64,000 bases of DNA from a bacterium (GCA_037446635.1 JBBIIG010000014.1:16294-80293); one strand, 5' to 3'; counted from the first letter of the stretch, positions 37,974 through 64,000 are shown. Made by a program: numbers and translations. Notes: generated by a model from the sequence alone, not told the origin.

Positions 37974-37996
37974 TCTTTTTACCCAAGGAATGGTTC

Positions 37997-40776: not shown

Positions 40777-40787
40777 TTTCTCACAAA

Positions 40788-40815: not shown

Positions 40816-40842
40816 TTTCTTGTAAATGAAGGAGCTGATTTT

Positions 40843-41823: not shown

Positions 41824-41826
41824 GTG

Positions 41827-41930
41827 TCGCAAATCGGAAATCGGAAAACGGAAATCGCAAACCGGAAAACGTAAACCGTAAATCGGAAATCGAAAAACGT
41901 TATTCGATTTCCGTTATTCGATATGCGGAA
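41827..41930. repeat. Family-F degenerate CGGAAA/TCG tandem tract ending in the palindrome CGGAAATCGAAAAACGTTATTCGATTTCCG
   Basis: cgcaaatcggaaatcggaaaacggaaatcgcaaaccggaaaacgtaaaccgtaaatcggaaatcgaaaaacgttattcgatttccgttattcga, between the two PorV-like genes. Confidence 0.8.
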
Positions 41931-41947
41931 TTGCATAGGAGTACAGC

Positions 41948-42868
41948 GTGAGAAATATTCAAATTACAACCGTATTGATTTGCTCGCTCGGCGTTTTTTT
42001 GAACTCAGCCTTTGCCCAAACCGGCAGCGCCGGCGCCACCGGGCTGGCGTTTCTGAAATTGGGCGTTGGCGCGCGCGCTAACGGCATGGGGGAGGCCTTT
42101 GTCGCGGTTGCCAATGACGCCGCCGCCACGTTCTGGAATCCGGCCGGTCTTTCCCAACTCGAACGTTCGCATTTCACCTTCACGCACAGCGAATGGATTC
42201 AGGATATTTCCAGCGAGTTTCTGGCGTTGGCGTTTCCGGCTTTTGGCGGCGTGACCGGCTTCAGCGTTTACGTCAACAATGTGGGCGGCATTGAACGCCG
42301 CGTCAACCCTTCTGAAGAACCGCTTGGAACCATTGACGCCAACGATGTTGCTCTGGGCGTCTCGTATGGCCGCTCGTTGGGTTCATCCATGCAGGCCGGC
42401 ATCACGGTAAAATATCTTTACGAGAAAATTTACCTGGAAAGCGCTTCGGGGTATGCTTTTGATTTCGGCCTGAATGTTCAACCTTTTGGCAGCGCGTTAA
42501 ATTTGGCGGTCGCGGCGCAGAATTTAGGCTCAATGAATGAGCTGCTGGCCGAGTCCATCGATTTGCCGAAAACCCTGCGCTTCGGCGCCGCTTATTCGTT
42601 TCCGCTGGCCGCGCTCGATGGCGCGGTGGTGCTGGCTGCAGAGGGCGTCAAAGTTGTGGAGAACGATCTGCGCGGCAGCTTCGGCGCCGAAGTGCAATTG
42701 AAAAAAATGCTGGCTTTACGCTTGGGATACCAGAGTGGCTACGAGGATAGAAGCTTGGCCGGCGGGTTTGGTTTGTCCTTCCAGCGCTACCACCTCGATT
42801 ATGGCTACACCCCGGTTGGTTCGAATTTAGGCGATACCCATCGTTTTTCCTTCGGCCTGGATTGGTAA
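41948..42868 (+). CDS. PorV/PorQ-family outer-membrane beta-barrel protein (second paralogue)
   Basis: Signal peptide. GSAGATGLAFLKLGVGARANGMGEAFVAVANDAAATFWNPAGLSQL. C-terminal ...HRFSFGLDW. Confidence 0.8.
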   Translation: MRNIQITTVLICSLGVFLNSAFAQTGSAGATGLAFLKLGVGARANGMGEAFVAVANDAAATFWNPAGLSQLERSHFTFTHSEWIQDISSEFLALAFPAFGGVTGFSVYVNNVGGIERRVNPSEEPLGTIDANDVALGVSYGRSLGSSMQAGITVKYLYEKIYLESASGYAFDFGLNVQPFGSALNLAVAAQNLGSMNELLAESIDLPKTLRFGAAYSFPLAALDGAVVLAAEGVKVVENDLRGSFGAEVQLKKMLALRLGYQSGYEDRSLAGGFGLSFQRYHLDYGYTPVGSNLGDTHRFSFGLDW

Positions 42869-50657: not shown

Positions 50658-51560
50658 ATGTTCAAACGAATCAGCGTGGTGGTTAATCCCGTTGCTGGCG
50701 GAAAGAAAGACAAATCGCAGCTCATCGCCAGGCTCACGAAGTTGCTTTCCGCCCCCGGGCGCAGCCTCTCCATTCAGTACACCGAAAAATCCGGCGACGC
50801 CAACCGCTTGGCTCGCGAAGCCGTGCAGCAAAATTCACAGCTCGTGGTGGTGATCGGCGGCGACGGCACCGTAAACGAAGTCGGCTCGGCCCTGGTTGAT
50901 ACCGACGTGCCCATGGCCATTATCCCGCGCGGCTCGGGAAACGGCTTTGCCCGGACGCTGCGGCTGCCGCCGCAATTAGAAGACGCCGCGGCTTTAATCA
51001 ATGATGGAGCGATTTCGCTAATCGACGTTGGGCAGGCGAACGAGCGCTACTTTTTTATGCTAATGGGAGTTGGCTTTGATGCCCGGATCGGCGAGCGATT
51101 TAACGCGCACTCCTCACGGGGGCCGCTGCCGTACTTCTATCTCAGCGCCAAAGAATTTTTTAACTACCGGCCCGCGCCGCTTCAAATCAACTTCAACGGA
51201 AAAGCTTTAGCGCTGGCGCCGTTTATGATTATCATCGCCAACGCCCAGCAGTTTGGCAACAACGCGCGCATAGCGCCGCACGCGATTTTGAACGACGGCC
51301 TGCTCGATATTTGCATCGTGCGCCGCCTCTCTTTTTTCGATCTACTCTTCGCACTGCCCAAACTTTTCAGCGGCCGCATTCACAATTATTCCGGTGTCGA
51401 GTTTTATCAAGCCCAACAGGTTCAGTTACAGCGCGAGCGCGCGGATTTTATCAACCTCGATGGCGAAGCCGTTTGGGAGGAAGCGGTGGTCAACGTTAGG
51501 GTGCTGCCGCGGCGCCTGAAAGTCATCACCCCAAAATTTTGCCCGGCGTTGGCGCCATGA
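50658..51560 (+). CDS. Diacylglycerol/lipid kinase family protein (YegS/BmrU type)
   Basis: VVVNPVAGGKK...VVVIGGDGTVNEV...IIPRGSGNGFAR... Confidence 0.85.
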   Translation: MFKRISVVVNPVAGGKKDKSQLIARLTKLLSAPGRSLSIQYTEKSGDANRLAREAVQQNSQLVVVIGGDGTVNEVGSALVDTDVPMAIIPRGSGNGFARTLRLPPQLEDAAALINDGAISLIDVGQANERYFFMLMGVGFDARIGERFNAHSSRGPLPYFYLSAKEFFNYRPAPLQINFNGKALALAPFMIIIANAQQFGNNARIAPHAILNDGLLDICIVRRLSFFDLLFALPKLFSGRIHNYSGVEFYQAQQVQLQRERADFINLDGEAVWEEAVVNVRVLPRRLKVITPKFCPALAP

Positions 51561-52213
51561 ATTCTCTGGTCATTTTTGTCAAACATCCCGCACCCTACAA
51601 GGTGAAAACCCGGCTCGGAGCGCAAATTGGTTATGCCTTAGCCGCCGACTTGTATAAAATTTTTATTGAACAAACCATCACGATGGCGGCGCGCAGCTCC
51701 GCCGACCGCGTGTTGATTGCGTATGAGTCGGCCGAGCGCGCTGACGACGTTAATTTGGCATTGCCCGCGGCGATGGCGGCGTTTCCGCAAACTGGCAGGG
51801 ATTTAGGCCAGCGGATGTTCAACGCTTTTCAACACACGTTTGCAGAAGGAGCCCATTCCACCGTGATCATCGGCAGCGACAGCCCCACGCTGCCGCGGCA
51901 TTTTCTAAAGCGAGCGTTCGATTATTTGGAACATAAAGATTTAGTGCTTGGCCCGGCGCAAGATGGCGGCTATTATTTGATCGGTTTAAAAACTCCCGTG
52001 CAAAAACTTTTTGAAAACATCGAATGGAGCTCGCCAGTTGTTTTGGAAAAAACGCTGGCGCGCGCCGAACAATTGCAGCTCTCTTTTGATTTGCTGCCCG
52101 TCTGGTACGACGTCGATGAAATCGAATCGCTGAAGCGCGCCGCCCACGATGACGCCAGCGGCCAGATTAAAAACTTCCTGCTGCGAAACTGTCCCACCAT
52201 CCAGCTTGATTGA
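51557..52213 (+). CDS. DUF2064 (TIGR04282-type) putative glycosyltransferase
   Basis: ATGA overlap with the kinase gene. LVIFVKHPAPYKVKTRL...DLGQRMFNAF...IIGSDSPTLP...VLGPAQDGGYYLIGL. Confidence 0.8.
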   Translation: MNSLVIFVKHPAPYKVKTRLGAQIGYALAADLYKIFIEQTITMAARSSADRVLIAYESAERADDVNLALPAAMAAFPQTGRDLGQRMFNAFQHTFAEGAHSTVIIGSDSPTLPRHFLKRAFDYLEHKDLVLGPAQDGGYYLIGLKTPVQKLFENIEWSSPVVLEKTLARAEQLQLSFDLLPVWYDVDEIESLKRAAHDDASGQIKNFLLRNCPTIQLD

Positions 52214-52214
52214 A

Positions 52215-52910
52215 ATGATTTTAGCCGCCCACCAACCTGGCTATTTGCCGACGATTGATTTTTTCTACAAAATGTCGCGCGCGGATGTTTTTGTTTTGGC
52301 GGACGATCTGGTTTTTACGACCCACTCGGATATTAATCGCGCCAAAATTAAAACCGCCCGCGGCCCGAGTTGGCTGACGGTGCCAGTTCGCACGAAGAGC
52401 CGGCGCGGCCAGCTCATTCATCAAGTCGAAACCGATCACCAGCAAAATTGGCGCGCCAAGCATTGGAACACCCTGCGCATGAATTACGCCTACGCGCCCT
52501 ATTTCGAGCTGCACTCCGACTACTTTGAAACTCTTTACTTGTTCGGCGATCCTCCGGCCCGTTTGTTTGAATGGAACGCCGCCGTCATCGATTATCTCGC
52601 GGCCTCGCTGAAATTAAAAACTAAATTGATTCGCAGTTCGGGCCTTAACGTTCACGCCCGCGGCCAGGAGTGGGTTTTCGGCGTCGCCGCCGCCACTGGC
52701 TGTCGCACTTATTTGGCGGACGCAGCCTTCGCGAGGTATCTATCAAAAGAAAAATTTGCTCAACATGGACTCGCCCTGCAATTCTTGCAAAATCCCAAAT
52801 TGCGATACCACCAACAATTTGGCGATTTCATCAGTGGACTTTCTATTGTCGATCTCCTGTTCAACGAGGGAGAACGCAGCCGCGAAATTTTGATGGAGAA
52901 CTCGCCGTGA
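52215..52910 (+). CDS. WbqC-family protein
   Basis: Starts 2 nt after the previous stop. ILAAHQPGYLPTIDFFYKMSRADVFVLADDLVFT...WLTVPV...NWRAKHWNTL. Confidence 0.8.
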   Translation: MILAAHQPGYLPTIDFFYKMSRADVFVLADDLVFTTHSDINRAKIKTARGPSWLTVPVRTKSRRGQLIHQVETDHQQNWRAKHWNTLRMNYAYAPYFELHSDYFETLYLFGDPPARLFEWNAAVIDYLAASLKLKTKLIRSSGLNVHARGQEWVFGVAAATGCRTYLADAAFARYLSKEKFAQHGLALQFLQNPKLRYHQQFGDFISGLSIVDLLFNEGERSREILMENSP

Positions 52911-53590
52911 AGGTAGTCGTCATCATCCCGGCTTTCAATGAGGAGCAGTCCATCGGTCTGGTTTTACAGGATATTCCGCGGCAGCTTGTTGACGCCGTGA
53001 TCGTCGTCGATAACGGCTCGCGCGATCGCACTGCGGAACTCGCCCGGCTTGGCGGCGCGGAGGTGGTTCGCGAAACACGCCGCGGCTACGGCAGCGCCTG
53101 CCTCGCCGGCATTAAACACGCAAAAACAATGAACCCCGACGCCGCGGTTTTTCTCGACGCGGATTTCAGCGATCACCCGCAGGAGCTGGTCGCACTTTTG
53201 GAAAAGATCGAAAGCGGCTTCGATCTTGTCATCGGTTCCCGCACTCTCGGAAAGGCCGAGCCCGGCGCGCTGCTGCCGCAGGCGCGTTGGGGAAACTGGT
53301 TGGCGGTTTCGCTGATTAAATGGTTCTTTGGATTTCGTTACACCGACCTCGGGCCATTCCGTGCCATCAAGTGGGACAAGCTGTTGGCGCTGGATATGCA
53401 GGATCGCAACTTTGGCTGGACCGTTGAAATGCAGGTGAAGGCAGTAAAAGCAGAATTGCGGATTACCGAGGTTCCGGTGAGTTACCGCAAACGCATTGGC
53501 ATCTCGAAAGTAACCGGCACGATTTCGGGAACCATCAAAGCCGGTTACAAAATCATTTTCACCATCTTAAAATATGCGTTTCGGAAATAA
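52907..53590 (+). CDS. Family-2 glycosyltransferase (polyprenol-phosphate glycosyltransferase-like)
   Basis: GTGA overlap with wbqC. VVIIPAFNEEQSIGLVLQDIP...VIVVDNGSRDRTAELA...RRGYGSACLAGI...DADFSD. Confidence 0.85.
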   Translation: MKVVVIIPAFNEEQSIGLVLQDIPRQLVDAVIVVDNGSRDRTAELARLGGAEVVRETRRGYGSACLAGIKHAKTMNPDAAVFLDADFSDHPQELVALLEKIESGFDLVIGSRTLGKAEPGALLPQARWGNWLAVSLIKWFFGFRYTDLGPFRAIKWDKLLALDMQDRNFGWTVEMQVKAVKAELRITEVPVSYRKRIGISKVTGTISGTIKAGYKIIFTILKYAFRK

Positions 53591-53705: not shown

Positions 53706-54290
53706 CTAAAAACTCGCGCCAGACAAGGCCTGTGAATGAGGATGTGAATCGGCGATGACGGTGACATATTTTATCATCACCGAGTATTTGTTGGCAAGCG
53801 ATTCCACCGGGTTGACGCGAATTCCAAAATTATAAAAAAAGGATTTTTCGTCGCTGTCAAAACAGGCGCGCAGCGGCGCCCTGCTGCAGTCGAACAACTT
53901 GATGGCCAGCAGCGAAAAATCGAATTCAAAATCCAGGGCAAGATCATAACTCGATTTTTGCAGATGCTGCTTGAGCGCGTTTTTGGGCAGGCCCAGCAGG
54001 TTGATATCTTCTTTGGAATAGGGCAGGATATCCAATTTGAGGCGGCTGTCGATAAAACTCACCATTTCAAGTTGAGCGACCACCGTGATGCGCCAGTTCG
54101 GGCGCTTTTCCCGCAGCTTCTCCAAAGCTTTGAGCGCGACGCCAAAATGCTCGACTTTAACCGGCATGAAAATTAAAATTTTCTGCGCTTTAGCCAATCG
54201 TTCCACCACGTCAACCGCGCCTGCTTTTTCAGAAATTCGAAATTTCAATCGCAGCGCCGCGCTGGCAAGTTTAGCGAGAGGAGGAGTCAT
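53706..54290 (-). CDS. Hypothetical protein
   Basis: 194 aa ORF, last gene of the minus-strand cluster 57513->53706. No motif recognised. Confidence 0.5.
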   Translation of the reverse strand: MTPPLAKLASAALRLKFRISEKAGAVDVVERLAKAQKILIFMPVKVEHFGVALKALEKLREKRPNWRITVVAQLEMVSFIDSRLKLDILPYSKEDINLLGLPKNALKQHLQKSSYDLALDFEFDFSLLAIKLFDCSRAPLRACFDSDEKSFFYNFGIRVNPVESLANKYSVMIKYVTVIADSHPHSQALSGASF

Positions 54291-54355: not shown

Positions 54356-56344
54356 TTAAATTTTGAGATCGATTTGCACGCCGAAGCGTCGGTCGCGTTG
54401 GCCTTGAATTTCGTCGGCGCCGCTGCCGATGACGTCGGTATCGTCGCGAAAGGTCTCCGCATATTTCGCCGAGAACCCCATGAACCTGAACTGGTAGTTT
54501 ATAAGTACATACCAACGCGCGCCCTCGCCGAATAAGCTGCGGTTGGTGGCCAAGCCGGGCAGATCGGGCTCGTATTGAAACACCGCGGAGTCGAAGGAGT
54601 CGGTGTCAAAAATGGTTAAACGCGCGGTCAGGGTCAGGGCTTTCGTGGGCTGGAGGCGAACATCCTGGTACATCAAAAAACCCTGCTCATCGGTTTCTGC
54701 GACCGCCGAGTTGAAGCGATTCGTTTTGAACGAAACGAATTCCCAGCGGCTGCGCAACCGCAGCTGCCGGCTGAGATCGTAATCCAATTGCAGCCGCCCC
54801 TGCCGTTTTAGAATCTCAACGAATTCGCGCCGCTCCCGCATTAATTCATCCTCGAACGTTTCAGTTTCTTGTTTTTGATTTTCGCGATAGCGCAGCGTCA
54901 GCCGCAGACGGTTGGAGAATCGCTGCTCAATCTGCGCCAAAAATTCGTTGCCATCGAACGGCAGCGGCTCAAAAAACGTCCGCCACGGATGGGTGAAAAT
55001 ATCGTAGTAGGCGCTGACCGCGGTGCGCTCGCCAATTTTGAAATGAAGGCCGGAATAATACCCGCGCTCGTTTTGGGTGCTGCCGTTGGCGTCGGCGAAG
55101 GCGAAGCCGTGCAGGTTCTGAAAATCTTTTCCGTAATCGCGAAACAGAAACGCCAGTTGGATTTTTTTGAAGTCGAGCAGGGCGCCGGCCAGCAGCGCGC
55201 GGCCGCCGTTTTTTGATCCCGCTGCTTCTCCAAAAAGATTGGCGCTGGGAATTCGCCAATCCCAGTGAAATCCGGCCACGGCGTTTTTTCTGCCGCGAAA
55301 TGCGAAGCGCTGCCGGACAAGATCGGGATCGTTGATGGTTTTGTCGAATTTTGAAAAGTAAAAGCTGCCGCCAACCGTAAGCTGCAACGGCAGTTGCAAT
55401 CGCAGCGCCGCGCCGGCCAGCGATTCCGTGAGCGCGTCCTTTTTGCTGAGCTCGTTTTCGTTGCGGTGGAAACCAGTGGCGAAAAGTCCGGAGACTTCAT
55501 TTTCGGAAGTGAGAGTAGCATCCAACTTGGCGCGCGACGCAAAAATGGTGGCGGCGAAATGTTTCAAAGTCACATGCGCGACCCCGCCGTGCAGCGCGGC
55601 GTTTTCATCTACTGTGCTGTAGCCGCGAAATTCACGGCCGCGTTTTTTGATGGGGAAAATCGCGTCGGCGCTTTTGGAAAAGCCGTACGGCCCCCACAGC
55701 GTCAGCCCCTGCCCGATTTGCAGCAGATAATTTCCAACCAGAAAAGAGAAGTTTGGGTGGGCGTCCACGGCGACGTAGTAGAGCCGCAGATCGTCCCAGC
55801 GCCGTTCGCCGCTGTCTTTCTCCAATAAAAATCCGCCGGAAATTTTTTCAGCGATTTGATATTGAATGCGGTGATAAATTTTTTGCGGCGAGTAGAGATA
55901 ATCGCCCTCCTCGAAGCCAACCGGCCGATCGACGCGATCGCTCAGCCGGCTGCGCAGGTTGAGGCGAATGCTTTTTGGGGCGGGCCGCGCCGGCTTTTTT
56001 ACAAACACCAGCTCGCGCAAATATTCGTACGTTTCGGCATTCACCCCGTCAACGCGCAGTAATTCTTCGACGCGCTTAAATTCGCCGCGCCGCTGGCGGT
56101 AGCGCAAAATGTTGTCGCGCAGAACCGGGGTGAGTCCGGGAATGATCTCCAATTCCTCCAGCGTCGCCGAGTTGAGATCGAGGGGATATTCTTTCAAGTT
56201 CAAAAGAATTTCGTAAAGCTCGGATTGTTCCGAGCTTTCTTCCTGGCTTTCCAGCAGTTTTTCCGCCATGGTTTCCTGGGCGAAAAGGGGGGCAGAAAGG
56301 CAAAGATAAATTACGAAGAAAGATGTTGTAGATAGGTTTTTCAT
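54356..56344 (-). CDS. Secreted protein: N-terminal ComEA-like helix-hairpin-helix domain plus a ~540 aa beta-rich (barrel-like) domain
   Basis: Signal peptide. LDLNSATLEELEIIPGLTPVLRDNILRYRQRRGEFKRVEELLRVDGVNAETYEYL. The remainder alternates beta-strand patterns and ends ...RRFGVQIDLKI. Confidence 0.75.
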   Translation of the reverse strand: MKNLSTTSFFVIYLCLSAPLFAQETMAEKLLESQEESSEQSELYEILLNLKEYPLDLNSATLEELEIIPGLTPVLRDNILRYRQRRGEFKRVEELLRVDGVNAETYEYLRELVFVKKPARPAPKSIRLNLRSRLSDRVDRPVGFEEGDYLYSPQKIYHRIQYQIAEKISGGFLLEKDSGERRWDDLRLYYVAVDAHPNFSFLVGNYLLQIGQGLTLWGPYGFSKSADAIFPIKKRGREFRGYSTVDENAALHGGVAHVTLKHFAATIFASRAKLDATLTSENEVSGLFATGFHRNENELSKKDALTESLAGAALRLQLPLQLTVGGSFYFSKFDKTINDPDLVRQRFAFRGRKNAVAGFHWDWRIPSANLFGEAAGSKNGGRALLAGALLDFKKIQLAFLFRDYGKDFQNLHGFAFADANGSTQNERGYYSGLHFKIGERTAVSAYYDIFTHPWRTFFEPLPFDGNEFLAQIEQRFSNRLRLTLRYRENQKQETETFEDELMRERREFVEILKRQGRLQLDYDLSRQLRLRSRWEFVSFKTNRFNSAVAETDEQGFLMYQDVRLQPTKALTLTARLTIFDTDSFDSAVFQYEPDLPGLATNRSLFGEGARWYVLINYQFRFMGFSAKYAETFRDDTDVIGSGADEIQGQRDRRFGVQIDLKI

Positions 56345-56388: not shown

Positions 56389-57513
56389 TTAATTGCTTTC
56401 TAAAGTTACAAATGGTTTGATTTTCTCCAGTTTGTTTTTTCCGATTCCCGGGACGTTGAGTAAATCGTCAATTTTTTGGAAGGGGCCGTTTTGCTCGCGA
56501 AATTCCAAAATGGCGCGCGCCAAACTCTCGCCGATGCCCGGCAGTTTTTTGAGATCATCAATCCTGGCGGAATTGATGTTAATTTTGCCGGGCGGAGATT
56601 CCGGATCCGGCGCCGGTTCGATTTTAGTCGAATCGATAGGCAGGATTTCGGGAGAAACCTCCACCACCGGTTTGGGTTCGGGCGGCGGTTGTTTTCCAAA
56701 ATGAATGGCCAGCGAAGTTTGATGAGTGAGCCCGAGATCGTTGTGGGTGAAGAAGGCGTAATCAATGGCGACGCGCTGGATGGCGACGCCGAATCCCGCG
56801 GAGAAGCGGCTGGGGTGATTGGCCGCGCCGGCGCGAATGGCTAAATTTGCCAGCGGCTTGAATTCGCAGCCGAAACGCGCCTCTGCGGCAAAGCGCACGT
56901 CTTTGAAAATTTCAAAATTCAAAATAAGATTGTTGAGGGGATGAACCGAAACGCCACTAGAAAAAATTTGCGGCGCATGTTCGTCGGTTTGTCCAATGGT
57001 GGGACGGTTGACGTTTTTGGCGACGAATCCAAGATTGATCTCAGACGAGAGTGGTACTAAAATTCCAAGATCGAGTCCTACTGCGCCGCCGGAGCCGTAG
57101 CCCTCGATGTGAACGGTTTGATAGCGCAGGCCCACGCCGTAAAAAAGCTTGCGCTGATAGTGGTGGCTGAACGTTAGGCTGAGCGCCTGCTCGCGGTAGA
57201 GGCCGTTGCCAAAGGTGAGCGCACCCAATCCCACGCGCCGATTCCAAATCGGGAAACTGAGGGCGAGAGTTCCAAAGTTGATCTCGGAAAGCCCGAACGG
57301 CTTTTGATAAAAAATCGCCAGCTCGGTTCCAACCAACTGACCCAACCCGCCGACGTTGAGAAAGACGGCGTCGGCGGTGTTGGCCAGCGCCACATAGGTG
57401 GCGCCCATTCCCAGCGACCGAGCGCCCACCGGCCACTCTTCCGCGCCCACTGGCTCTGGAACGTACAATAGTGCAACCACCGCGAAGAAGAAAAAAATCT
57501 TGCGTTGAGTCAT
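56389..57513 (-). CDS. PorV/PorQ-like beta-barrel fused via a Pro-rich linker to a C-terminal ComEA-like HhH DNA-binding domain
   Basis: Signal peptide. VGARSLGMGATYVALANTADAVFLNVGGLGQL plus barrel strands. Linker QPPPEPKPVVEVSPE...PAPDPESPPG. Then ININSARIDDLKKLPGIGESLARAILEFREQNGPFQKIDDLLNVPGIGKNKLEKIKPFV. Confidence 0.8.
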   Translation of the reverse strand: MTQRKIFFFFAVVALLYVPEPVGAEEWPVGARSLGMGATYVALANTADAVFLNVGGLGQLVGTELAIFYQKPFGLSEINFGTLALSFPIWNRRVGLGALTFGNGLYREQALSLTFSHHYQRKLFYGVGLRYQTVHIEGYGSGGAVGLDLGILVPLSSEINLGFVAKNVNRPTIGQTDEHAPQIFSSGVSVHPLNNLILNFEIFKDVRFAAEARFGCEFKPLANLAIRAGAANHPSRFSAGFGVAIQRVAIDYAFFTHNDLGLTHQTSLAIHFGKQPPPEPKPVVEVSPEILPIDSTKIEPAPDPESPPGKININSARIDDLKKLPGIGESLARAILEFREQNGPFQKIDDLLNVPGIGKNKLEKIKPFVTLESN

Positions 57514-57614
57514 CTTCGCCTCGCAACAATTAGCTTGACATTCATTGACGGTTTTATCTATATTTTTTCAAAATCAGTGTAAAATCTGGACACCCATTCC
57601 GGGAGGTCGCGTCC

Positions 57615-58505
57615 GTGGCAACCACGAAACTCTCTTATTTGCGCTTCCAAATGCTTCCCCTCCTTTCCTCGATAAGTTTAGCAATTGCGGTTCTGCTGCC
57701 TTCACGGGCAGCGGCGCAGGCGGTGAAGGCGAACGTGAACGTTATCATCGATAAGCTGCCTATTGAAAAACAGGAAAAAATGAGAAACTTCCACCGCGTC
57801 GTCAAAGACTACATCGAAAACGCCAATTGGTTTTTGGATGACGACGCCGTGCCCATCGAAGTGACCCTGCAAATGTTTCTCACCGATATTCCCTCCAACA
57901 TCGAAGATCGCTATCTCTGCGAGCTACTGGTCTCAAGCGCGGACGTGCAGTACTTCGATAAGCGCTTCCGTTTTCCGTTTCAACCGGGAACGCAATTGGT
58001 TTACAGCGAACAAGCGATTGACCCGCTTACCGGCGTGATCGATTTTTACCTGAACCTGGTTTTAGGCAATGAGCTGGATAAATACAGCGGCTTTGGGGGA
58101 GACGTTTACTACAAACGAGCGCAAAGCATTGCGGCGCTGGGCAAGTTCGTGCGCACGGAATTTGTGCGCGGCTGGCCCGAGCGCGAACAACTGATTAAAC
58201 GGGTGTTCGAGGAGCCATTTATCACCTTCCGCAAAATGAAGGATTTCTATTTTTATGGGCTGTACGTCCGCGAAAAAAATCTCGCCGACGCCCGCAAAAA
58301 TGTGAAGATTGCTTTGGACATGCTCGAAACTGTCATCGAGAAGAAAGGCGATCTGGATGAGCCGCGACAGTTTTTAAACGCGCACTACTTGGAGTTTATC
58401 GATCTTTTCAAAGACTACGAAAACAAAAAAGAGATTTTCAAAAAGTTGATCAAGTTAGATTCGGCTCACAGAGAATTGTATGAAGCGCACGTTGGGGAGT
58501 CGTGA
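57615..58505 (+). CDS. DUF4835 family protein (PorD-like T9SS-associated protein)
   Basis: Signal peptide. VKANVNVIIDKLPIEKQEKMRNFHRVVKDYIENANW...PIEVTLQMFL...DPLTGVIDFYLNLVLGNELDKYSGFGGDVYYKRAQSIA follows the DUF4835 pattern as I recall it. Confidence 0.7.
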   Translation: MATTKLSYLRFQMLPLLSSISLAIAVLLPSRAAAQAVKANVNVIIDKLPIEKQEKMRNFHRVVKDYIENANWFLDDDAVPIEVTLQMFLTDIPSNIEDRYLCELLVSSADVQYFDKRFRFPFQPGTQLVYSEQAIDPLTGVIDFYLNLVLGNELDKYSGFGGDVYYKRAQSIAALGKFVRTEFVRGWPEREQLIKRVFEEPFITFRKMKDFYFYGLYVREKNLADARKNVKIALDMLETVIEKKGDLDEPRQFLNAHYLEFIDLFKDYENKKEIFKKLIKLDSAHRELYEAHVGES

Positions 58506-59136
58506 GTGAACAGCGACAATTTATAAATTGTTTGGAATAAGTCAAGAGCTTTTTTTCACTGACATCATTTTATACATTAGTATTACGCAACAAGTACACT
58601 CTTTAGTATTTCAATTACGGTCGAAGTTTTGATTGCGACAGATCAGTGAAAGGCAAGGGAACCGTGACTACTGTGCCACTTGTAAGTGTGCCCACGCTTC
58701 GTCCTCCTCTGGGCGATTCCAATCAACCGCCAGGGCTTCTTCCCTTAGCAGGGCGGTTATATTCAGTTTTTTCGTCAAGAGCTAAGATGGTTACAGGCGC
58801 ACGATTAAATGGATGGGGACGAGCTTTGATCAACCCACGGGCGTGCCGGATGTCTCGGCCAATGCAATTGGGATTGGATATCGGCATCCTCGTGCAAAAC
58901 CTGTTTCCACACTGGACGCTCTCCAGACAAAGCGAGTCGTTCCCCAAACGCTTTCGCAAGTTTGACCGCCCACCTGCGGCTGGGTTTCAGGGACTCTCCT
59001 TTGGCCTGGCGCTGGCCTGTTGACTGTCGCCGGCCAACTGTTGGCGGATTTGGGGCCGGGTGAAATTAGGAAGGCTTCAGTCGCAAATCTCAAAATGGTT
59101 TGGAAGAGATTGCCCAGATAATCCGTTAGCTTAAAC

Positions 59137-62100
59137 TTACCGCATCACCACCAACTTCTCCACCACCTCCACCTGCTCGTCGCCGCGGCGGGCGATGAGT
59201 TTGTATAAATACACGCCGTTCGCCAGCGCGTCGCCGTCGAAGTCGCGGGCGTTCCAGTGAAATTGATTGAAGCCGACGCGCGCCGGTAGAAAGTCCGCTT
59301 CGTGGATCAGACGGCCCGCGACGGTGTAAATTTTCAAGCGCACTTCATCGGCGTCCTGGGAGAGAATGTAGGTGAACGCGGTTTCGTTTTGAAAGGGATT
59401 GGGATAGTTCAGCACCTCGGTGATCTGGAAACGCGAGCTCACCTGAAACGCCTGCTCGAAATAATTGAGGTTGCCAGACGGGTCGCGGGCAAACACTTCG
59501 ATTTGATGATCGCCCTCGGAAAGGTTTGCGGTGAACAGGACCAGCGCTTTCAAATCGCGCTGCTCGGGGTTGGACTGCGGCAGAAATTGCGCCTGGCTCG
59601 CGCCGCTGCCGTAACTCACCTTTTGCTGATCGAGATAGACCACCACCTGCGAGGTGTCGGTGAACTGCGCCGGTCCGCGGTCGCGGATTTCCACCACCAC
59701 TTGCGGCGCGGCGGAAACAAAATCGCCGGCGGCCACCGTGCGGCCATCCATCTGTACGCGGATGACCGGCGCCAGCGTGTCGCGCACCACCCATAAACTG
59801 AAATCAGCGGCGTTGTTGGTCTCATCCAATTCCGTGATGCGATCATCCGCATCGAGTCGCACCGTCAGTTCGATTTTTCCGCTCAAACCACTAGTGGAAA
59901 TCAACGCCGGGTATTCGCGGATTTCATCCACCTGCAATCCGCCGACTTTCATTTTCTGCACTTCAGTTGCGCCCCGGAACATACTCACGAAGAAACTATC
60001 AGCGGCGGCGAGGCCAAAGTTGGCCGCGCCGATCGTGACCTGCGCTTCCGCGCCCACTTCGACTGTATCCTGCTGCACGTGAATCTCACTTTTGACGGTG
60101 GCGAGATCCGGCGGCGGAGAAAAATCCACTGACCATGACTGCAGCCGCGGCGTCGTCAATCCATTCGCGCTGGTGAGCGCGGCTGCCAATTGGATTTGTG
60201 GATAAGCCTGCGCCGGGATTTGCGAGAGGTCAATTTCGGCGGCGGAAAAGTTGGAGATCAACGTATCCAATGCGCTGCTGCCGCGCGGTTTTCCGATCAC
60301 CGAAAATATGATTTGATTTTGCTGATCTGATTCAAATGCGAGCCGCGCCGATTTCCACTCCAGCGCCGGCCCAATGAGCGGCGAAATCATGCGCCCGTTT
60401 TTCGCAAAACGATACAGCGTATCCGCGATGGCGATGGCGCCCTCCCCAACTTTTTTCCATTCTTCCGGCACCGTTCCAATGGCCGCACCCTTGCGCCCGA
60501 TGATCGCCCAGGCGTCGCGAAAGCGCACCTGCCGCGTGAATTGGCTGCCGATGCTTTCCAGCGCCAAATAGGCGCTTTCGGTCATGGAGACGCTGCCGTC
60601 ATCGCGAATGGCGGCGAGCACGATTCTGCCCTCTGGCAGCGCGTTGATGAACTGCGCCAGCGCCTCGGCGTTGGCGGTCGCGCCGTAGGTGTCGAAGCTG
60701 GCGCGATCCAGCAGCGCGCCGTCAGTCTCATCGAATACCGCGAGATTGTGGCCGCGCCTGTTGAGACTGACGTGCTCGTCGTTGCGCCACAGCCGCGCAA
60801 AGTTGCCGTCGCTGAACCCCGCCGATTCCGCCAGAAATGAAAGCTGGTTTTGTCGCAGCACCGCAAAGCGCGGCGTCACGCTAACGTTCTCCAAAAAATT
60901 GTTTTCAAATTGTTCGGCGCGCTGCTGCCGCCATTGCCCCGACGTTTGCGGCGAATAGGTGAACGATGCCGTCGCCCACGGCCCAAATTGTTCGCCGTCG
61001 AAGGTGCGGACGCGCCAGTAGTAAACGCCGGCCTGCGAAAGGTTCGGCTGCCAACGCGTGGTCAATCTCCCTTCGTCAATGGGCGGCGAGGCCTGGCGCA
61101 GCGGGCTGTCGAACGCCGCGCTGGTGTCGATTTCAAAAAAATAAACCAATCCCGCGATTTGAATTTTCGAATTGTTGGCGACCAGTTCCGGATTCGCGTT
61201 TTGCACCACGCCAAAATTCAGCGGCTTGATCAAAGTTAAGTCCGATGAGAAAACGGTAACCGTTTGTTCGGCAAAATTGTTGTTTTTGTCTGTTTCCGAA
61301 ATGCGATTTTGCGGATCGATTTCCACTTGAATGCGATACGCTCCGGGTTCATCCGGGAGACGCCACGACACCGTCACCGAATCGCGAAAGCCGGTTGGCG
61401 GGCGGATGAGCGCAGCGATCGGTGTCGAGTTGTTTTCGAAATCCAAAATCGAAATTTGCCCGGCCACGCTGTCAACCGGCTGCAGTCCGAAATTGCGAAT
61501 GACGGCGGAGATGGCCGCCGTGGAATCGGTGGTGAGCAGCAACTCGGGGGCGACGGTGATGTCCTCGTTTTGAATGCTCAACTCCGGTTGTGTGGGAATG
61601 TTCAACGCCAGCGCTGGGTCGCCGATGAGGATGTACTGGTCGATGACAAATTTGCTGCGCGGCTGGCCGCCGAGCCGCTGCCACAGTTGATACTTCGCGG
61701 AAGTGGTCGCCGCGCCCACGCTGCGCAAGGTGTCTTTGGTCACCGCGCGAAACAAACCATCGAGCAGAAAATAATCCTGAGTAATGTACCCAAAGCCCGC
61801 CGAGCCCCAGTATGCCGCTGCGCCGTTGGGGTGCAGCACAAACTCTTCGCTGAGACTGTTCAGCACGGGTTCGGCGAAGCGGGCGGAGTGGCAGGACATG
61901 CCGGTGATGAACGGGAACACCTCGCGGTTTTGCCAGTCGTCCGGGTGGCCGATGTCGATGTCCCACACCTGGCTGCCGGCGTGGCCGATGAAATTAACCC
62001 AGAGAACGCCATCGTGAATTTTCTCCGAAGCGGTACGTTTAAAATTCAGGGTGATGGCCTCATTGGTGGTTTTGTTGTACGGGATGGCGAGGCCGCTGAA

Positions 62101-64000
62101 GGGCGCCGGCGCGACGTGGTCGTTGACGAGTCGGGTGCCCTGCGAAAGAAAAATAGCTTGCTCGGTGGCGTTGATGCCGCCATTGGCAAAGGCAATTTCT
62201 TTGTTCCACGCGCCGAAGGGCAAGCGCTCGTACGCCATGATTTTGTCGATGACGATGGCCGCCTGCTCCGCGGTTTCGACCGGAATGCGCCCGACGAACA
62301 GATCCGGCAGCACATCGTCCGGGCCGTCGAGCAGGGCGTACCAGTTGTCGGCGACGAGGATGCCGTAGGAAGGAACGTAATTGGTTTTCACCGCGCCCGC
62401 CGATAGTTTTTTCGGATCCCACGAAGCGTCGCCGAGCAGAACCAAATAGGTGGGCGCCGGCTTTTCCCAAAACTCAAAGGCGTAACTCAAAAACGATTTG
62501 ATGGCTTCGGGCGCAATGATGCCGAAATTGAATTCGTCATAAATATCTTGCACATCGACGACCGCTGTCCGGAAGCCATTCCGATCGCGGCGGTAGTCTG
62601 CCAGCCTCTGCGCTTCATCCAAAAAATTTTTGTGGGTGATGATGATGTAATCCGCGGCGCTGGCGGTTGAATGCAGATCGCTATTTTTTTCTTTTTCAAT
62701 GCGGCTGATTTTTTTGAGGCCGGATTTCGACGCGGCGAAATAAAATGTCGCCGCGCTGGTGTCCGTGAACCCAGCCGAGTAGCCCAGCGCCGACTCGCCC
62801 CGCAGCGTGTCGCTGACTGCGGCCGGTCCGCTCAATCTCCTCGAAAGAACTTCTTTAGCCGAGCCCACCACCGCGCCCTTGCGGCCGACGAACGCCCAAC
62901 TATCGCGGAACGCAACTTGCCGAATGAGGCCGCTGCCAGCGGACTCATAAGCTTGATACACCGCTTCGTTCAAGTTGGTGGCGCCTTCGTCGCAAATGCC
63001 GGCCAGCACGATTTGACCCGCAGGCAGGGAATTCAAATAGGCCGCCAGTTCATCGGCGGCGGCCGGCGCGCCGAAGGGATCGAAGCGGCGAATTTCCGAG
63101 GCCCCGGTTTGGGGATCGATGGTCATGATGTGATGGCCGCGGCTGCGGAATTCCTGCACCTCAAAATGGGCGATGAGCTTCACAAAGTTGCCGTCGTTGA
63201 AGCCGGCGGATTCCACTTGAAAAAAAGAGGCGCGGTCGATTAGCGGTTGCCACCGCCTGCCTTTTAGAGGATCGAAAATGGTGATCTGTGAATCCGAAAA
63301 ATTGTGCAGCAAATAATTTTTGATGACGCGGCCGGGGTTGTCGGCTTTGAATTTGAAATGACTTTGCGCCGCGGCCGGCGTTCGTGGGTAGATGACGTCC
63401 ACCCAATCGAGATAGATTTGATTCACCAGCGCGCCGCTGCCGCCGACGAGATGCAGGTCGAAACGATTCTGGCCGTTGACGAAAAGCGACGTCGGCAGAA
63501 TTAGATTCCACAGCAGCTCTTCGCGATCGTCAAAGAAATTTTCGCCGACGAGTTGATTATTAATAGTGAGCCGGACGTGGTGATCCGGATTCACCGGATC
63601 TTGGGTCGTTCCCTGCAGCCGCAGTTTGAGCGTGCAATTTTCCACGGCGTAGTGCAGGCCACTTAAATTGAAACTGAAAATGTCGTGTTCGTTTTCAAAA
63701 ATGTAGCGGCCAATCCAGCCTTCATCCGGGTCGATTTCGCTGGAGCTGTTGGAGCGATGAAAGATAACTTCGCGCTCGAGATGCAGGGTTTCCCAATAAA
63801 ATGGGTCGGGCTGGTTTTGTGAAATTCCGGATGGAATCAATTGGTAGCGCGGCCCGGGGTCGCCATCGTCCGTGAGAAAATAGACATTGGTGTCGGTGTA
63901 AAAATCGTAGTAGCGATCGCTTGCCTGCGCAGGCAGGCGGCCGCGATGCCAGTCGGCGTAAAAGTAAATGGTGTCCAGCGGAGAAAATGTGACATTCTGC
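59137..64000 (-). CDS. Giant C25 (gingipain-type) cysteine peptidase, PorU-like, with two ILEI/FAM3-like domains, CARDB-like domains and a T9SS/FlgD-Ig C-terminal domain; 5' end outside the window
   Basis: The frame stays open from 63840 to the window edge (...YYDFYTDTNVYFLTDDGDPGPRYQLIPSG). C25 core: ADYIIITHKNFLDEAQRLADYRR...YLVLLGDASWDP...LPDLFVGRIPV. Catalytic NFIGHAGSQVWD (His ~61981) and ITGMSCHSARF (Cys 61891-61893). C-terminal LNYPNPFQNETAFTY...GVYLYKLIARRGDEQVEVVEKLVVMR. Confidence 0.9.
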   Translation of the reverse strand, partial: QNVTFSPLDTIYFYADWHRGRLPAQASDRYYDFYTDTNVYFLTDDGDPGPRYQLIPSGISQNQPDPFYWETLHLEREVIFHRSNSSSEIDPDEGWIGRYIFENEHDIFSFNLSGLHYAVENCTLKLRLQGTTQDPVNPDHHVRLTINNQLVGENFFDDREELLWNLILPTSLFVNGQNRFDLHLVGGSGALVNQIYLDWVDVIYPRTPAAAQSHFKFKADNPGRVIKNYLLHNFSDSQITIFDPLKGRRWQPLIDRASFFQVESAGFNDGNFVKLIAHFEVQEFRSRGHHIMTIDPQTGASEIRRFDPFGAPAAADELAAYLNSLPAGQIVLAGICDEGATNLNEAVYQAYESAGSGLIRQVAFRDSWAFVGRKGAVVGSAKEVLSRRLSGPAAVSDTLRGESALGYSAGFTDTSAATFYFAASKSGLKKISRIEKEKNSDLHSTASAADYIIITHKNFLDEAQRLADYRRDRNGFRTAVVDVQDIYDEFNFGIIAPEAIKSFLSYAFEFWEKPAPTYLVLLGDASWDPKKLSAGAVKTNYVPSYGILVADNWYALLDGPDDVLPDLFVGRIPVETAEQAAIVIDKIMAYERLPFGAWNKEIAFANGGINATEQAIFLSQGTRLVNDHVAPAPFSGLAIPYNKTTNEAITLNFKRTASEKIHDGVLWVNFIGHAGSQVWDIDIGHPDDWQNREVFPFITGMSCHSARFAEPVLNSLSEEFVLHPNGAAAYWGSAGFGYITQDYFLLDGLFRAVTKDTLRSVGAATTSAKYQLWQRLGGQPRSKFVIDQYILIGDPALALNIPTQPELSIQNEDITVAPELLLTTDSTAAISAVIRNFGLQPVDSVAGQISILDFENNSTPIAALIRPPTGFRDSVTVSWRLPDEPGAYRIQVEIDPQNRISETDKNNNFAEQTVTVFSSDLTLIKPLNFGVVQNANPELVANNSKIQIAGLVYFFEIDTSAAFDSPLRQASPPIDEGRLTTRWQPNLSQAGVYYWRVRTFDGEQFGPWATASFTYSPQTSGQWRQQRAEQFENNFLENVSVTPRFAVLRQNQLSFLAESAGFSDGNFARLWRNDEHVSLNRRGHNLAVFDETDGALLDRASFDTYGATANAEALAQFINALPEGRIVLAAIRDDGSVSMTESAYLALESIGSQFTRQVRFRDAWAIIGRKGAAIGTVPEEWKKVGEGAIAIADTLYRFAKNGRMISPLIGPALEWKSARLAFESDQQNQIIFSVIGKPRGSSALDTLISNFSAAEIDLSQIPAQAYPQIQLAAALTSANGLTTPRLQSWSVDFSPPPDLATVKSEIHVQQDTVEVGAEAQVTIGAANFGLAAADSFFVSMFRGATEVQKMKVGGLQVDEIREYPALISTSGLSGKIELTVRLDADDRITELDETNNAADFSLWVVRDTLAPVIRVQMDGRTVAAGDFVSAAPQVVVEIRDRGPAQFTDTSQVVVYLDQQKVSYGSGASQAQFLPQSNPEQRDLKALVLFTANLSEGDHQIEVFARDPSGNLNYFEQAFQVSSRFQITEVLNYPNPFQNETAFTYILSQDADEVRLKIYTVAGRLIHEADFLPARVGFNQFHWNARDFDGDALANGVYLYKLIARRGDEQVEVVEKLVVMR

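What the first reader, a model, noticed from the sequence alone, without database searches (positions are those of the whole stretch)
56389..64000. T9SS machinery-like neighbourhood: PorV-like barrel, DUF4835/PorD-like protein and a PorU-like C25 peptidase
Three proteins related to the T9SS attachment and sortase complex lie within 7.6 kb, together with five CTD cargo genes elsewhere in the window. The C25 protein keeps the catalytic His (NFIGHAGS) and Cys (GMSCHSA) and has its own C-terminal sorting-type domain, as PorU does. However, at more than 1,600 aa it is far larger than Bacteroidota PorU as I recall it (roughly 1,100-1,200 aa) and carries extra domains. This may represent a lineage-specific version of the T9SS cargo-processing module.
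Basis: partly seen in the sequence, partly recalled or inferred. Interest (0 to 1): 0.5.

Follow-up and report, generated by a model that had tools for sequence, protein, structure and literature searches.

The report
PorU-like sortase beside PorD barrel module
A giant PorU-type surface protease of an uncultured KSB1 bacterium lies, in this lineage only, next to a separate three-gene outer-membrane unit (PorD, a small PorV-like barrel, a large barrel with ComEA-type domains) that is strictly conserved across three phyla and that I could not find described.

Summary
The three genes are real and belong to type IX secretion (T9SS) families, but they are not one module.

**C25 gene (59137 to beyond 64000, minus strand).** It is a PorU-family protein, not gingipain-like: 105 bits to P. 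gingivalis PorU against 20 bits to gingipain R. The His/Cys dyad is invariant in 120 of 120 sequences. It has a type-A C-terminal sorting domain (CTD). Full length is about 1,913 aa in the 87%-identical relative. The extra length is two ILEI domains that keep the POMGnT1 sugar-binding triad, plus CARDB domains. This architecture is common in KSB1, Calditrichota, Ignavibacteria and Rhodothermales.

**Neighbourhood.** Similarity to the three closest relatives stops at the C25 stop codon. None of 66 genomes has a C25 gene within 10 kb of the other two genes.

**The other two genes.** They belong to a strictly conserved trio: PorD (DUF4835), transcribed divergently from a 14-strand PorV/PorQ-like barrel (here fused to a ComEA-type HhH domain), followed by a large (roughly 24-26-strand) barrel with an N-terminal HhH domain (54356-56344).
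- The trio is present in every locus with enough flanking sequence, across three phyla.
- The barrel pair also occurs in Bacteroidota.
- No solved structure is a close relative of the large barrel, and I found no literature on it.

**Other points.** Better PorV/PorQ candidates lie at 40843-42868. PorD belongs to the translocon, not the attachment complex.

The parts
59137..64000 (-). PorU-family C25 cysteine peptidase. It is 5'-truncated by the window end: 1,620 aa are visible, and the full length is about 1,913 aa by the 87%-identical homolog P0001.
   Evidence: The frame is open to the window end. Peptidase_C25 258 bits. NCBIfam PorU 310.7 and PorU2 299 bits. Best PDB hit is PorU 6za2, E 2e-29, against gingipain R at E 7e-4. 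Homologs are listed.
62851..63141 (-). ILEI/FAM3-like domain 1 (aa 287-383), located between the N-terminal propeptide-like region and the C25 domain.
   Evidence: 49% identical to ILEI-2. Pfam ILEI matches two stretches. The POMGnT1 triad R/D/R is kept.
61603..62649 (-). C25 catalytic domain (aa 451-799). The His motif is at 61972-61995 and the Cys motif at 61882-61902.
   Evidence: His and Cys are invariant in 120 of 120 aligned sequences, including P. gingivalis PorU.
60484..60756 (-). ILEI/FAM3-like domain 2 (aa 1082-1172), inside the roughly 600-aa insertion relative to P. gingivalis PorU.
   Evidence: Pfam ILEI 161.9 bits. Hits the POMGnT1 stem domain (E 9e-13) and FAM3A-C. The sugar-binding triad is kept.
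59806..60111 (-). CARDB domain, second copy (aa 1297-1398). Pfam matches two stretches; I did not locate the first copy.
   Evidence: Pfam CARDB 80.3 bits, two stretches.
59140..59406 (-). Type-A T9SS C-terminal sorting domain (aa 1532-1620).
   Evidence: TIGR04183 27.4 bits (cut-off 23), FlgD_ig 38.4 bits. The region aa 1412-1618 aligns with residues 940-1153 of P. gingivalis PorU.
58506..59136 (.). 630-bp spacer between the convergent C25 and PorD genes. Similarity to the closest relatives breaks here.
   Evidence: blastn/tblastx similarity to L005, L001 and L004 stops at the C25 stop codon. The ORFs in the spacer have no family hits.
57615..58505 (+). PorD-like DUF4835 protein. The likely start is the Met 12 codons downstream, followed by a signal peptide.
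   Evidence: DUF4835 97.6 bits. NCBIfam PorD 90.6 bits over the full length. The syntenic I. album ortholog scores 248.8, above the cut-off of 170.
57514..57614 (.). Short divergent intergenic region between the barrel gene and PorD, with a sigma-70-like site (TTGACA-18-TATATT) facing PorD.
   Evidence: consensus match only. The divergent arrangement is kept in every locus that has upstream sequence.
56389..57513 (-). Small 14-strand PorV/PorQ/FadL-like outer-membrane barrel (aa 28-272, 56698-57432), then a disordered Pro-rich linker, then a ComEA-type (HhH)2 domain (aa 310-370, 56404-56586).
   Evidence: 27% identical to the PorV/PorQ-family protein at 41948-42868 (E 8e-15).
54356..56344 (-). 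Large outer-membrane barrel, 662 aa, roughly 24-26 strands. It has a signal peptide and an N-terminal ComEA-type HhH domain (aa 55-111, 56012-56182).
53706..54290 (-). Fourth gene of the unit in KSB1-type genomes: a 194-aa protein weakly similar to DUF6913.
   Evidence: Pfam DUF6913 21.6 bits, below GA 27. The same position is occupied in L008, L010-L012, L015, L016 and L018-L020.

Best explanation
Two independent T9SS-related units of a KSB1 (candidate division) bacterium happen to abut here.

**Unit 1: the organism's PorU-type enzyme.** It has an N-terminal C25-propeptide-like domain (outside the window), a catalytic C25 domain with an intact His/Cys dyad, Ig-like domains and a type-A CTD, collinear with P. 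gingivalis PorU. It is enlarged by two ILEI/FAM3-type domains and CARDB domains.
- Shown: family assignment, catalytic residues, CTD, domain map, and conservation of the sugar-binding triad.
- Inferred: it is exported by the T9SS, stays on the cell surface, removes the CTD of cargo such as the four CTD proteins in this window, and transfers the cargo to a surface glycolipid.
- Inferred: the ILEI domains hold the glycan acceptor. In P. gingivalis a separate protein, PorZ, does this job.

**Unit 2: a conserved operon-like trio.** PorD is transcribed divergently from a small PorV/PorQ-like 14-strand barrel, followed by a large barrel.
- Both barrels expose ComEA-type HhH domains. These should face the periplasm, because they sit at barrel termini.
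- Shown: strict synteny across three phyla, the folds, and the HhH domains.
- Inferred: the two barrels and PorD work together at the outer membrane, most likely in connection with the T9SS translocon with which PorD associates. The HhH domains would tether a periplasmic polyanion (DNA is the only known ligand class) or a partner protein.

The closeness of unit 1 to unit 2 is a local rearrangement and carries no functional information.
For: **C25 protein**
- PorU 6za2 is the best solved relative over both the catalytic domain and the C-terminus. Gingipain scores 85 bits lower.
- The only substantial NCBIfam matches are PorU and PorU2; the other hits (<=32 bits) cover just the C-terminal sorting domain.
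- Relatives cross a curated cut-off: P0036 scores 428 on PorU (cut-off 420) and P0106 scores 466 on PorU2 (cut-off 450).
- His and Cys are invariant in 120 of 120 sequences.
- The CTD passes TIGR04183.
- Both ILEI copies keep the residues equivalent to POMGnT1 R129, D179 and R207, as do about 90% of 147 copies in the family (PMC9802357).
- Two homologs sit inside glycosyltransferase/flippase clusters.

**Separation of the two units**
- Similarity to the closest relatives ends at the C25 stop codon.
- The neighbourhoods of five homologs differ.
- 0 of 66 loci have a C25 gene within 10 kb.

**Trio**
- The barrel and the HhH barrel are present in 66 of 66 loci. A full-length DUF4835 ORF was clustered in 61 of 66, a fragment in one more, and the remaining four loci end at the barrel.
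- No other gene family is shared across these loci.
- The I. album member passes the PorD equivalog cut-off.
- The barrel pair also occurs in Chitinophaga and in a Bacteroidetes MAG.
- Both structure models are confident.
Against: - Neither the window protein nor its full-length 87% relative reaches the curated PorU or PorU2 cut-offs (311 and 324 against 420; 299 and 372 against 450).
- I could not count C25 paralogs or list the core T9SS genes in the source genome, so another gene could be the real sortase.
- No PorV-type gene is consistently adjacent to the C25 gene, unlike porU-porV in Bacteroidota.
- For the trio, the T9SS link rests on PorD synteny and on distant PorV/PorQ homology only.
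- PorD deletion has little or no phenotype in the two model organisms (PMC8754138, PMC10994853).
- In the two Bacteroidota examples PorD is not adjacent to the barrel pair.
- HhH domains of this type are otherwise known from DNA uptake, which points away from protein secretion.
Confidence: 0.65

Rival explanations
1. One reading: the three genes form one lineage-specific attachment/sortase module, with PorU anchored on the adjacent PorV-like barrel and PorD as an accessory.
For: All three families are T9SS-related and lie within 7.6 kb. In Bacteroidota porU and porV are typically neighbours (my recollection). The barrel is homologous to PorV/PorQ.
Against: The adjacency is absent in relatives whose C25 protein is 87% and 80% identical and in 66 of 66 genomes carrying the barrel/PorD unit. 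The C25 and PorD genes are convergent and separated by 630 bp of unrelated DNA. PorD is a translocon partner, not an attachment-complex partner (PMC10994853). The barrel is below the family cut-off, and better candidates exist in the window.
Confidence: 0.07
2. The C25 protein is not the sortase. It is a T9SS cargo: a large surface protease or adhesin whose ILEI and CARDB domains bind environmental glycans.
For: It carries a type-A CTD like any cargo. It is below both curated PorU cut-offs. It has many adhesin-like domains. Its gene context is variable.
Against: PorU itself carries a CTD. The protein is collinear with PorU in both the catalytic and C-terminal regions, and 85 bits closer to PorU than to gingipain. 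Relatives grade continuously into proteins that pass the PorU or PorU2 cut-offs. No second C25 family turned up among 440 hits in these phyla, though this was not tested per genome.
Confidence: 0.15
3. The PorD/barrel/HhH-barrel trio handles DNA at the outer membrane (uptake of environmental DNA for food or transformation, or anchoring of DNA). The large barrel would be the channel and the periplasmic ComEA-type domains would act as a ratchet. It would be unrelated to protein secretion.
Against: No competence gene (comEC, dprA, nuclease) is conserved near the trio. The strictly conserved partner is PorD, a T9SS-associated protein. The small barrel belongs to the T9SS-specific PorV/PorQ family. 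The HhH motifs of the large barrel are degenerate (GLT and GVN instead of GIG). The R. anatipestifer protein has a different architecture.
Confidence: 0.25

Closest known systems
PorU, the T9SS sortase of Porphyromonas gingivalis (PG0026, PDB 6ZA2; NCBIfam NF033707)
   Same: - The C25 fold, with the His/Cys dyad at equivalent positions.
- The C-terminal Ig-like domain plus type-A CTD align.
- An N-terminal C25-propeptide-like domain is present in the full-length relative.
   Different: - About 1,913 aa against 1,156 aa.
- Two ILEI domains and CARDB domains are inserted.
- Scores 311-324 bits against a cut-off of 420.
- No conserved neighbouring porV.
- Comes from a non-Bacteroidota phylum.
NCBIfam NF052324, 'putative T9SS sortase PorU2'
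   Same: The closest full-length relative scores higher on this model (372 bits) than on PorU (324 bits). A Rhodothermales homolog with the same ILEI-containing architecture passes the cut-off (466 against 450).
   Different: The window lineage is below the cut-off. No PorV2 (NF052325) partner is present: the best score in the window is 65 bits against a cut-off of 325. I found no publication on PorU2 or PorV2.
PorV / PorQ (NF033709 family): FadL-like 14-strand carriers of the T9SS
   Same: A 14-strand barrel with an N-terminal hatch-like segment. TM 0.55 to F. johnsoniae PorV. Full-length match to the family model.
   Different: - 52 bits against a cut-off of 90.
- The barrel is about 245 aa, against about 370 aa for PorV, so the loops are shorter.
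- Fused to a ComEA-type HhH domain.
- Its fixed partner is a large HhH barrel, not PorU or PorZ.
PorD (PGN_1783 / Fjoh_3466; DUF4835; NF052317)
   Same: Full-length DUF4835 match, a signal peptide, and about 295 aa. The syntenic I. album ortholog passes the equivalog cut-off.
   Different: The KSB1 version scores 91 bits against a cut-off of 170. Here it is locked in a divergent gene pair with two barrels. Such a pairing is not mentioned in the PorD papers I read, and it is absent in the two Bacteroidota loci examined.
ComEA (periplasmic DNA receptor of competence systems)
   Same: An (HhH)2 domain of the HHH_3/TIGR00426 type, predicted to face the periplasm.
   Different: It is attached to outer-membrane barrels rather than to the inner membrane or free in the periplasm. 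No competence genes are nearby.
POMGnT1 stem domain / FAM3 (ILEI, PF15711)
   Same: The best sequence matches of the two inserted domains, and the sugar-binding Arg/Asp/Arg triad is conserved.
   Different: Here the domains are bacterial, present in two copies, and embedded in a cysteine peptidase. No ligand is known.

Membership tests
PorU (T9SS sortase, NF033707) | C25 catalytic domain with a His/Cys dyad | tested here: met
   Pfam 258 bits. His and Cys align with those of PorU and are invariant in 120 of 120 sequences.
PorU (T9SS sortase, NF033707) | Closer to PorU than to gingipains or other C25 cargo | tested here: met
   PDB search: PorU 105 bits against gingipain R 20.5 bits.
PorU (T9SS sortase, NF033707) | Score at or above the curated equivalog cut-off (420 bits) | tested here: not met
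   310.7 bits for the truncated window protein. 324 bits for the full-length 87% relative. The 38%-identical KSB1 relative P0036 reaches 428 bits.
PorU (T9SS sortase, NF033707) | Own type-A C-terminal sorting domain | tested here: met
   TIGR04183 27.4 bits (cut-off 23). Aligns with the PorU C-terminus.
PorU (T9SS sortase, NF033707) | Gene paired with porV (the usual arrangement in Bacteroidota, from my own knowledge) | tested here: not met
   A PorV-family barrel lies 1.6 kb away, but the pairing is absent in all relatives examined.
PorU (T9SS sortase, NF033707) | Removes CTDs and attaches cargo to a surface glycolipid; its own CTD is retained | not testable with these tools
   Needs biochemistry or genetics.
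PorU2 (NF052324) | Score at or above the cut-off (450 bits) | tested here: not met
   299 bits for the window protein and 372 bits for P0001. The Rhodothermales homolog P0106 scores 466 bits.
PorV/PorQ family (NF033709) | 14-strand FadL-like outer-membrane barrel | tested here: met
   AF2 model with 14 strands, pLDDT 80. Foldseek hits on FadL, TodX and PorV.
PorV/PorQ family (NF033709) | Score at or above the subfamily cut-off (90 bits); a PorV or PorQ equivalog hit | tested here: not met
   52.4 bits on the family model. PorQ 36 bits against 220. No PorV equivalog hit and no Pfam PorV hit. The window genes at 40843-41823 and 41948-42868 do pass, with 101 and 172 bits.
PorV/PorQ family (NF033709) | Binds the CTD of cargo, PorU or PorZ | not testable with these tools
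   Would need a complex model or pull-downs.
PorD (DUF4835, NF052317) | Full-length DUF4835 domain above the Pfam threshold | tested here: met
   97.6 bits against GA 25, residues 35-290.
PorD (DUF4835, NF052317) | Score at or above the NCBIfam equivalog cut-off (170 bits) | tested here: not met
   90.6 bits. The syntenic I. album gene scores 248.8 bits, so orthology is supported by position.
PorD (DUF4835, NF052317) | Binds PorW/SprE of the translocon | not testable with these tools
   Known from PMC8754138 and PMC10994853 only for P. gingivalis and F. johnsoniae.
ComEA-type HhH domain (HHH_3, TIGR00426) | (HhH)2 domain above the thresholds | tested here: met
   Small barrel: HHH_3 80.9 bits, TIGR00426 66.7 bits (cut-off 53.1). 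Large barrel: HHH_3 52.6 bits (GA 27), TIGR00426 32.9 bits (below the cut-off).
ComEA-type HhH domain (HHH_3, TIGR00426) | Binds double-stranded DNA | not testable with these tools
   Needs a binding assay.
T9SS-bearing organism | Core genes porK/L/M/N and sprA/sov in the genome | not testable with these tools
   The source contig could not be retrieved. No such genes are in the window or in the held KSB1 loci. Indirect support comes from four CTD cargo genes, PorD and three PorV/PorQ-family barrels.

The most novel reading that the evidence does not exclude
The PorD / small PorV-like barrel / large HhH barrel trio is an unrecognised outer-membrane sub-complex that works with the T9SS translocon. 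It would be ancestral to the Bacteroidota-Ignavibacteriota-Calditrichota-KSB1 group. This would give PorD, which has almost no phenotype in model organisms, its real partners, and would connect a protein-secretion machine to periplasmic ComEA-type (DNA- or polyanion-binding) domains. The large barrel would be a new outer-membrane channel family, with more than 6,000 sequence clusters and no solved close relative.
Probability: 0.3. Interest if true: 0.75.

Novelty: new variant of a known kind. Interest (0 to 1): 0.5.

Why it matters
T9SS biology rests almost entirely on two Bacteroidota models.

**The sortase step outside Bacteroidota.** In other phyla this step appears to be done by a protein about 1,900 aa long, with built-in domains that keep a known sugar-binding triad. 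That suggests the glycan acceptor is recognised by the enzyme itself rather than by a separate PorZ-type protein.

**A lead on PorD.** PorD's role is unclear: its deletion has little or no effect in the two models. Here it is genomically locked to two outer-membrane barrels in every Ignavibacteriota, Calditrichota and KSB1 genome sampled. That gives a concrete, testable lead for PorD function. It also points to a very large outer-membrane protein family that I could not find described, currently annotated only as 'helix-hairpin-helix domain-containing' or 'ComEA family' protein.

Tried and rejected
- **Source contig.** Exact-sequence look-ups of window proteins failed, including P0121, which is 100% identical. 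The missing N-terminus and the genome inventory were therefore out of reach.
- **Genome scan.** A narrower alignment, A4, worked. Its patterns only reach KSB1, Calditrichota and Ignavibacteria, so absence elsewhere is not shown.
- **Taxon names.** Names for distant members of the large-barrel family were mostly missing.
- **Literature.** Nothing found for KSB1 plus T9SS, PorU2/PorV2, PorU in Ignavibacteria, T9SS plus helix-hairpin-helix, or ComEA-type outer-membrane barrels.
- **R. anatipestifer competence protein.** The HhH protein RA0C_RS02645 was considered as a relative of the barrel-HhH fusion. I rejected it because it is described as a periplasmic protein with three HhH domains, not a barrel.
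- **Spacer ORFs.** ORFs in the 630-bp spacer (58646-59023 +, 58830-59093 -) have no family hits and are probably not genes.
- **RNA genes.** No tRNA or Rfam match anywhere in the window.
- **Core T9SS genes in held loci.** No SprA-sized ORFs in the held KSB1 loci.

Full report
**What is in the region**

- Three genes lie between 56389 and the window end.
- The 374-aa protein at 56389-57513 (-) has a signal peptide.
  - Its barrel region (aa 28-272) matches the NCBIfam PorV/PorQ family model end to end at E 5.7e-14. The score is 52 bits against a cut-off of 90.
- A Pro-rich linker follows, then a ComEA-type helix-hairpin-helix (HhH) domain (HHH_3 E 7e-23; TIGR00426 66.7 bits against a cut-off of 53.1).
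- The 296-aa protein at 57615-58505 (+) is a full-length DUF4835 protein (97.6 bits; NCBIfam PorD 90.6 bits against a cut-off of 170).
- The minus-strand frame from 59137 stays open to base 64000, so the C25 protein is cut at its N-terminus and 1,620 aa are visible.
  - Its domains are Peptidase_C25 (258 bits), two ILEI, two CARDB, and a FlgD_ig/type-A sorting domain.
- The best protein relatives name the organism as candidate division KSB1.

**Is the C25 protein PorU-like or gingipain-like?**

- Against all PDB sequences the best hit is P. gingivalis PorU (6za2, E 2e-29, 105 bits).
  - Two collinear stretches match: the catalytic domain (aa 435-805 to PorU 391-791) and the C-terminal Ig-like domain plus CTD (aa 1412-1618 to PorU 940-1153).
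  - Gingipain R reaches only 20.5 bits.
- The query Cys aligns with position 688 of that chain. This is the catalytic Cys690 if my recollection of that residue number and a two-residue numbering offset are right; I did not check either.
- His and Cys are invariant in 118 homologs, the window protein and PorU.
- The only substantial NCBIfam matches are PorU (310.7 bits) and 'PorU2' (299 bits), both below their cut-offs.
  - The 87%-identical full-length relative P0001 (1,913 aa, with an N-terminal Propeptide_C25 domain) scores 372 on PorU2 and 324 on PorU.
  - A 38%-identical KSB1 relative passes PorU (428 against 420).
  - A Rhodothermales relative passes PorU2 (466 against 450).
- The size of roughly 1,900 aa is the norm, not an oddity. 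More than 100 homologs of 1,600-2,000 aa with this architecture come from KSB1, Calditrichota, Ignavibacteria, Rhodothermales and Poribacteria.

**What the extra length is**

- Relative to P. gingivalis PorU there is one ILEI domain before the catalytic domain. After it comes an insertion of about 600 aa holding CARDB, ILEI and CARDB.
- The two ILEI copies are 49% identical to each other.
- Their best solved relatives are the POMGnT1 stem domain (E 9e-13) and FAM3A-C.
- That domain class binds GlcNAc and mannose through Arg129, Asp179 and Arg207 of POMGnT1 (PMC9802357).
- All three residues are kept in both window copies and in about 90% of 147 copies across the family.
- ILEI copy number varies: two, one or none in 59, 25 and 28 full-length homologs.
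- Two homologs lie inside glycosyltransferase, flippase and sugar-nucleotide clusters (L002/L003 and L075).
- In P. gingivalis a separate protein, PorZ, brings the anionic LPS to PorU (PMC8545088).
- I therefore infer that in these lineages the sortase carries its own glycan-binding modules. This is an inference and was not tested.

**Is the neighbourhood a module?** No.

- In the loci of the three closest C25 genes (87%, 80% and 80% protein identity), DNA and translated similarity to the window stops at the C25 stop codon.
  - What follows is an HD-domain gene, toxin-antitoxin genes, or the contig end.
- The 374-aa barrel has a different set of faithful neighbours.
  - In Ignavibacterium album the order is DUF4835 (-), a 282-aa barrel (+), a 672-aa HHH_3 protein (+). 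This matches the window at 57615-58505 / 56389-57513 / 54356-56344.
- A scan of species-representative genomes with the barrel alignment returned 66 loci from KSB1, Calditrichota and Ignavibacteriota MAGs. Some carry loose 'Bacteroidetes' or 'Cytophagia' labels.
- I searched these loci with my own HMMs.
  - The barrel and the large HhH protein are present in 66 of 66 loci.
  - A full-length DUF4835 ORF was clustered in 61 of 66, always divergent. One more locus has only a fragment. The other four end at the barrel.
  - A C25 domain lies within 10 kb in 0 of 66.
  - No other gene family is shared across the set.
- KSB1-type loci add a fourth small gene (weak DUF6913 similarity) followed by GT2, WbqC, DUF2064 and a lipid-kinase-like gene, as in the window.
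- The I. album DUF4835 gene passes the curated PorD cut-off (248.8 against 170). The trio's DUF4835 gene is therefore PorD.

**The small barrel**

- The AF2 model (pLDDT 80) has 14 strands, an N-terminal hatch-like segment, a disordered linker (aa 277-306) and a compact HhH domain.
- Foldseek finds FadL, TodX, F. johnsoniae PorV (8gl6_F, TM 0.55, the best TM score) and BamG.
- It is 27% identical (E 8e-15) to the protein at 41948-42868.
- That protein and its neighbour at 40843-41823 do pass the PorV/PorQ family cut-off (172 and 101 bits) and sit next to a CTD protein.
- 'PorV-like' is therefore right at the family level. This gene is nonetheless the most divergent of three paralogs in the window and is not the best PorV candidate.
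- Because barrel termini face the periplasm, the C-terminal HhH domain should be periplasmic (inference).
- By gene length the fusion is present in 9 of 13 KSB1/Calditrichota-type loci and in none of the Ignavibacteria-type loci.

**The large barrel**

- The 662-aa protein has a signal peptide, an N-terminal HhH domain (HHH_3 52.6 bits) and a confidently modelled barrel of roughly 24-26 strands (pLDDT 86, pTM 0.82).
- A profile search of 1.84 billion representatives finds 6,251 clusters at E<=1e-30, nearly all 650-740 aa.
- Named members come only from KSB1, Calditrichota and Bacteroidota (Chitinophaga, Ferruginibacter, 'Bacteroidia').
- In Chitinophaga solisilvae and in a Bacteroidetes MAG, a homolog of the small barrel sits directly upstream of the large one (hhalign probability 97.9%; my HMM E 1.8e-21 and 2e-33). 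PorD is not adjacent there.
- None of my targeted full-text searches returned a description of this protein. No paper in the library contains both 'type IX secretion' and 'helix-hairpin-helix'.

**How it most likely works**

- **Unit 1 (confidence about 0.7 that it is the functional PorU equivalent).**
  - It is exported through the T9SS by its CTD and held at the surface.
  - The Cys/His dyad cleaves cargo CTDs and transfers the cargo to an amine-bearing surface glycolipid, as described for P. gingivalis (PMC8545088).
  - The ILEI domains position the glycan.
  - Likely substrates in this window are the four CTD proteins at 20986-22647, 27660-28910, 29939-32740 and 39163-40776.
- **Unit 2.**
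  - PorD is known to bind PorW/SprE in the extended translocon and is dispensable or nearly so in both models (PMC8754138, PMC10994853).
  - Two of the three trio genes have T9SS family ties, and all named carriers belong to T9SS-bearing phyla.
  - I therefore favour (about 0.5) an outer-membrane assembly that works with the translocon.
  - The alternative (about 0.25) is a DNA-handling channel with ComEA-like periplasmic ratchets. DNA is the only known ligand for this HhH class, and Bacteroidota use a non-canonical DNA-uptake route (PMC8459023).
  - The data cannot separate these two readings.

**Limits**

- The source genome could not be reached, so core T9SS genes, PorZ and C25 paralogs were not counted.
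- The genome scan used two peptide patterns and cannot show absence in other phyla.
- All functional statements about the trio are inference from synteny, fold and domain content.

**Verdict**

- The interpretation as one cargo-processing module is not supported.
- The C25 protein is a widespread enlarged PorU variant that I could not find described in the literature.

Noticed in passing
window 37970-42868 (+): A second T9SS-looking cluster. It holds a 'choice-of-anchor X' protein (37970-39166), a BNR/sortilin-like CTD protein (39163-40776), and two tandem PorV/PorQ-family barrels that pass the NCBIfam cut-off (40843-41823 at 101 bits; 41948-42868 at 172 bits, also Pfam PorV 30.5 bits). These are better PorV/PorQ candidates than the gene in the finding.
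   Followed up: partly
L002 5768-11527, L003 4469-10228, L075 8001-12926: PorU-like C25 genes of another KSB1 MAG and of a Rhodothermales MAG are embedded in polysaccharide-synthesis clusters (GT2/GT4 transferases, a Wzx-like flippase, WecA-like transferases, an epimerase). This hints at a link between this sortase type and a specific surface glycan.
   Followed up: partly
window 50658-53590 (+) and L008 13861-16826 (-): The genes beyond the trio (DAGK/YegS-like kinase, DUF2064, WbqC, GT2) are in the same order in a distant KSB1 MAG. The conserved block in KSB1 is therefore larger than the trio and includes lipid- or glycan-modifying enzymes.
   Followed up: no
window 54356-56344 (-): The identical database protein P0241 is annotated 25 codons shorter (637 aa), which removes the signal peptide. 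The 662-aa start, MKNLSTTSFFVIYLCLSAPLFAQE, looks correct.
   Followed up: partly
L004 about 17400-17451: A 52-bp copy (94% identical) of the 3' end of the window's C25 gene (CTD-coding part) lies 1.2 kb downstream of the L004 C25 gene, in an intergenic stretch next to split PorV-like ORFs (17539-18628). It may be a remnant of a rearrangement.
   Followed up: no
window 29939-32740 (+): A 933-aa CTD cargo protein made of nine DUF5666 repeats (405 bits).
   Followed up: no
L076 4399-7986: In a Bacteroidetes MAG, an ABC-type ATPase gene (232 aa) immediately precedes the small-barrel/large-barrel pair on the same strand.
   Followed up: no
L006 7067-9046 (+): In Ignavibacterium album a 659-aa peptidyl-prolyl isomerase gene lies directly beside PorD. 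A family of the same length (median 665 aa) starts at the same position in 25 of the 66 loci, though I did not check that it is the same family. A peptidyl-prolyl isomerase is also part of the F. johnsoniae translocon.
   Followed up: no
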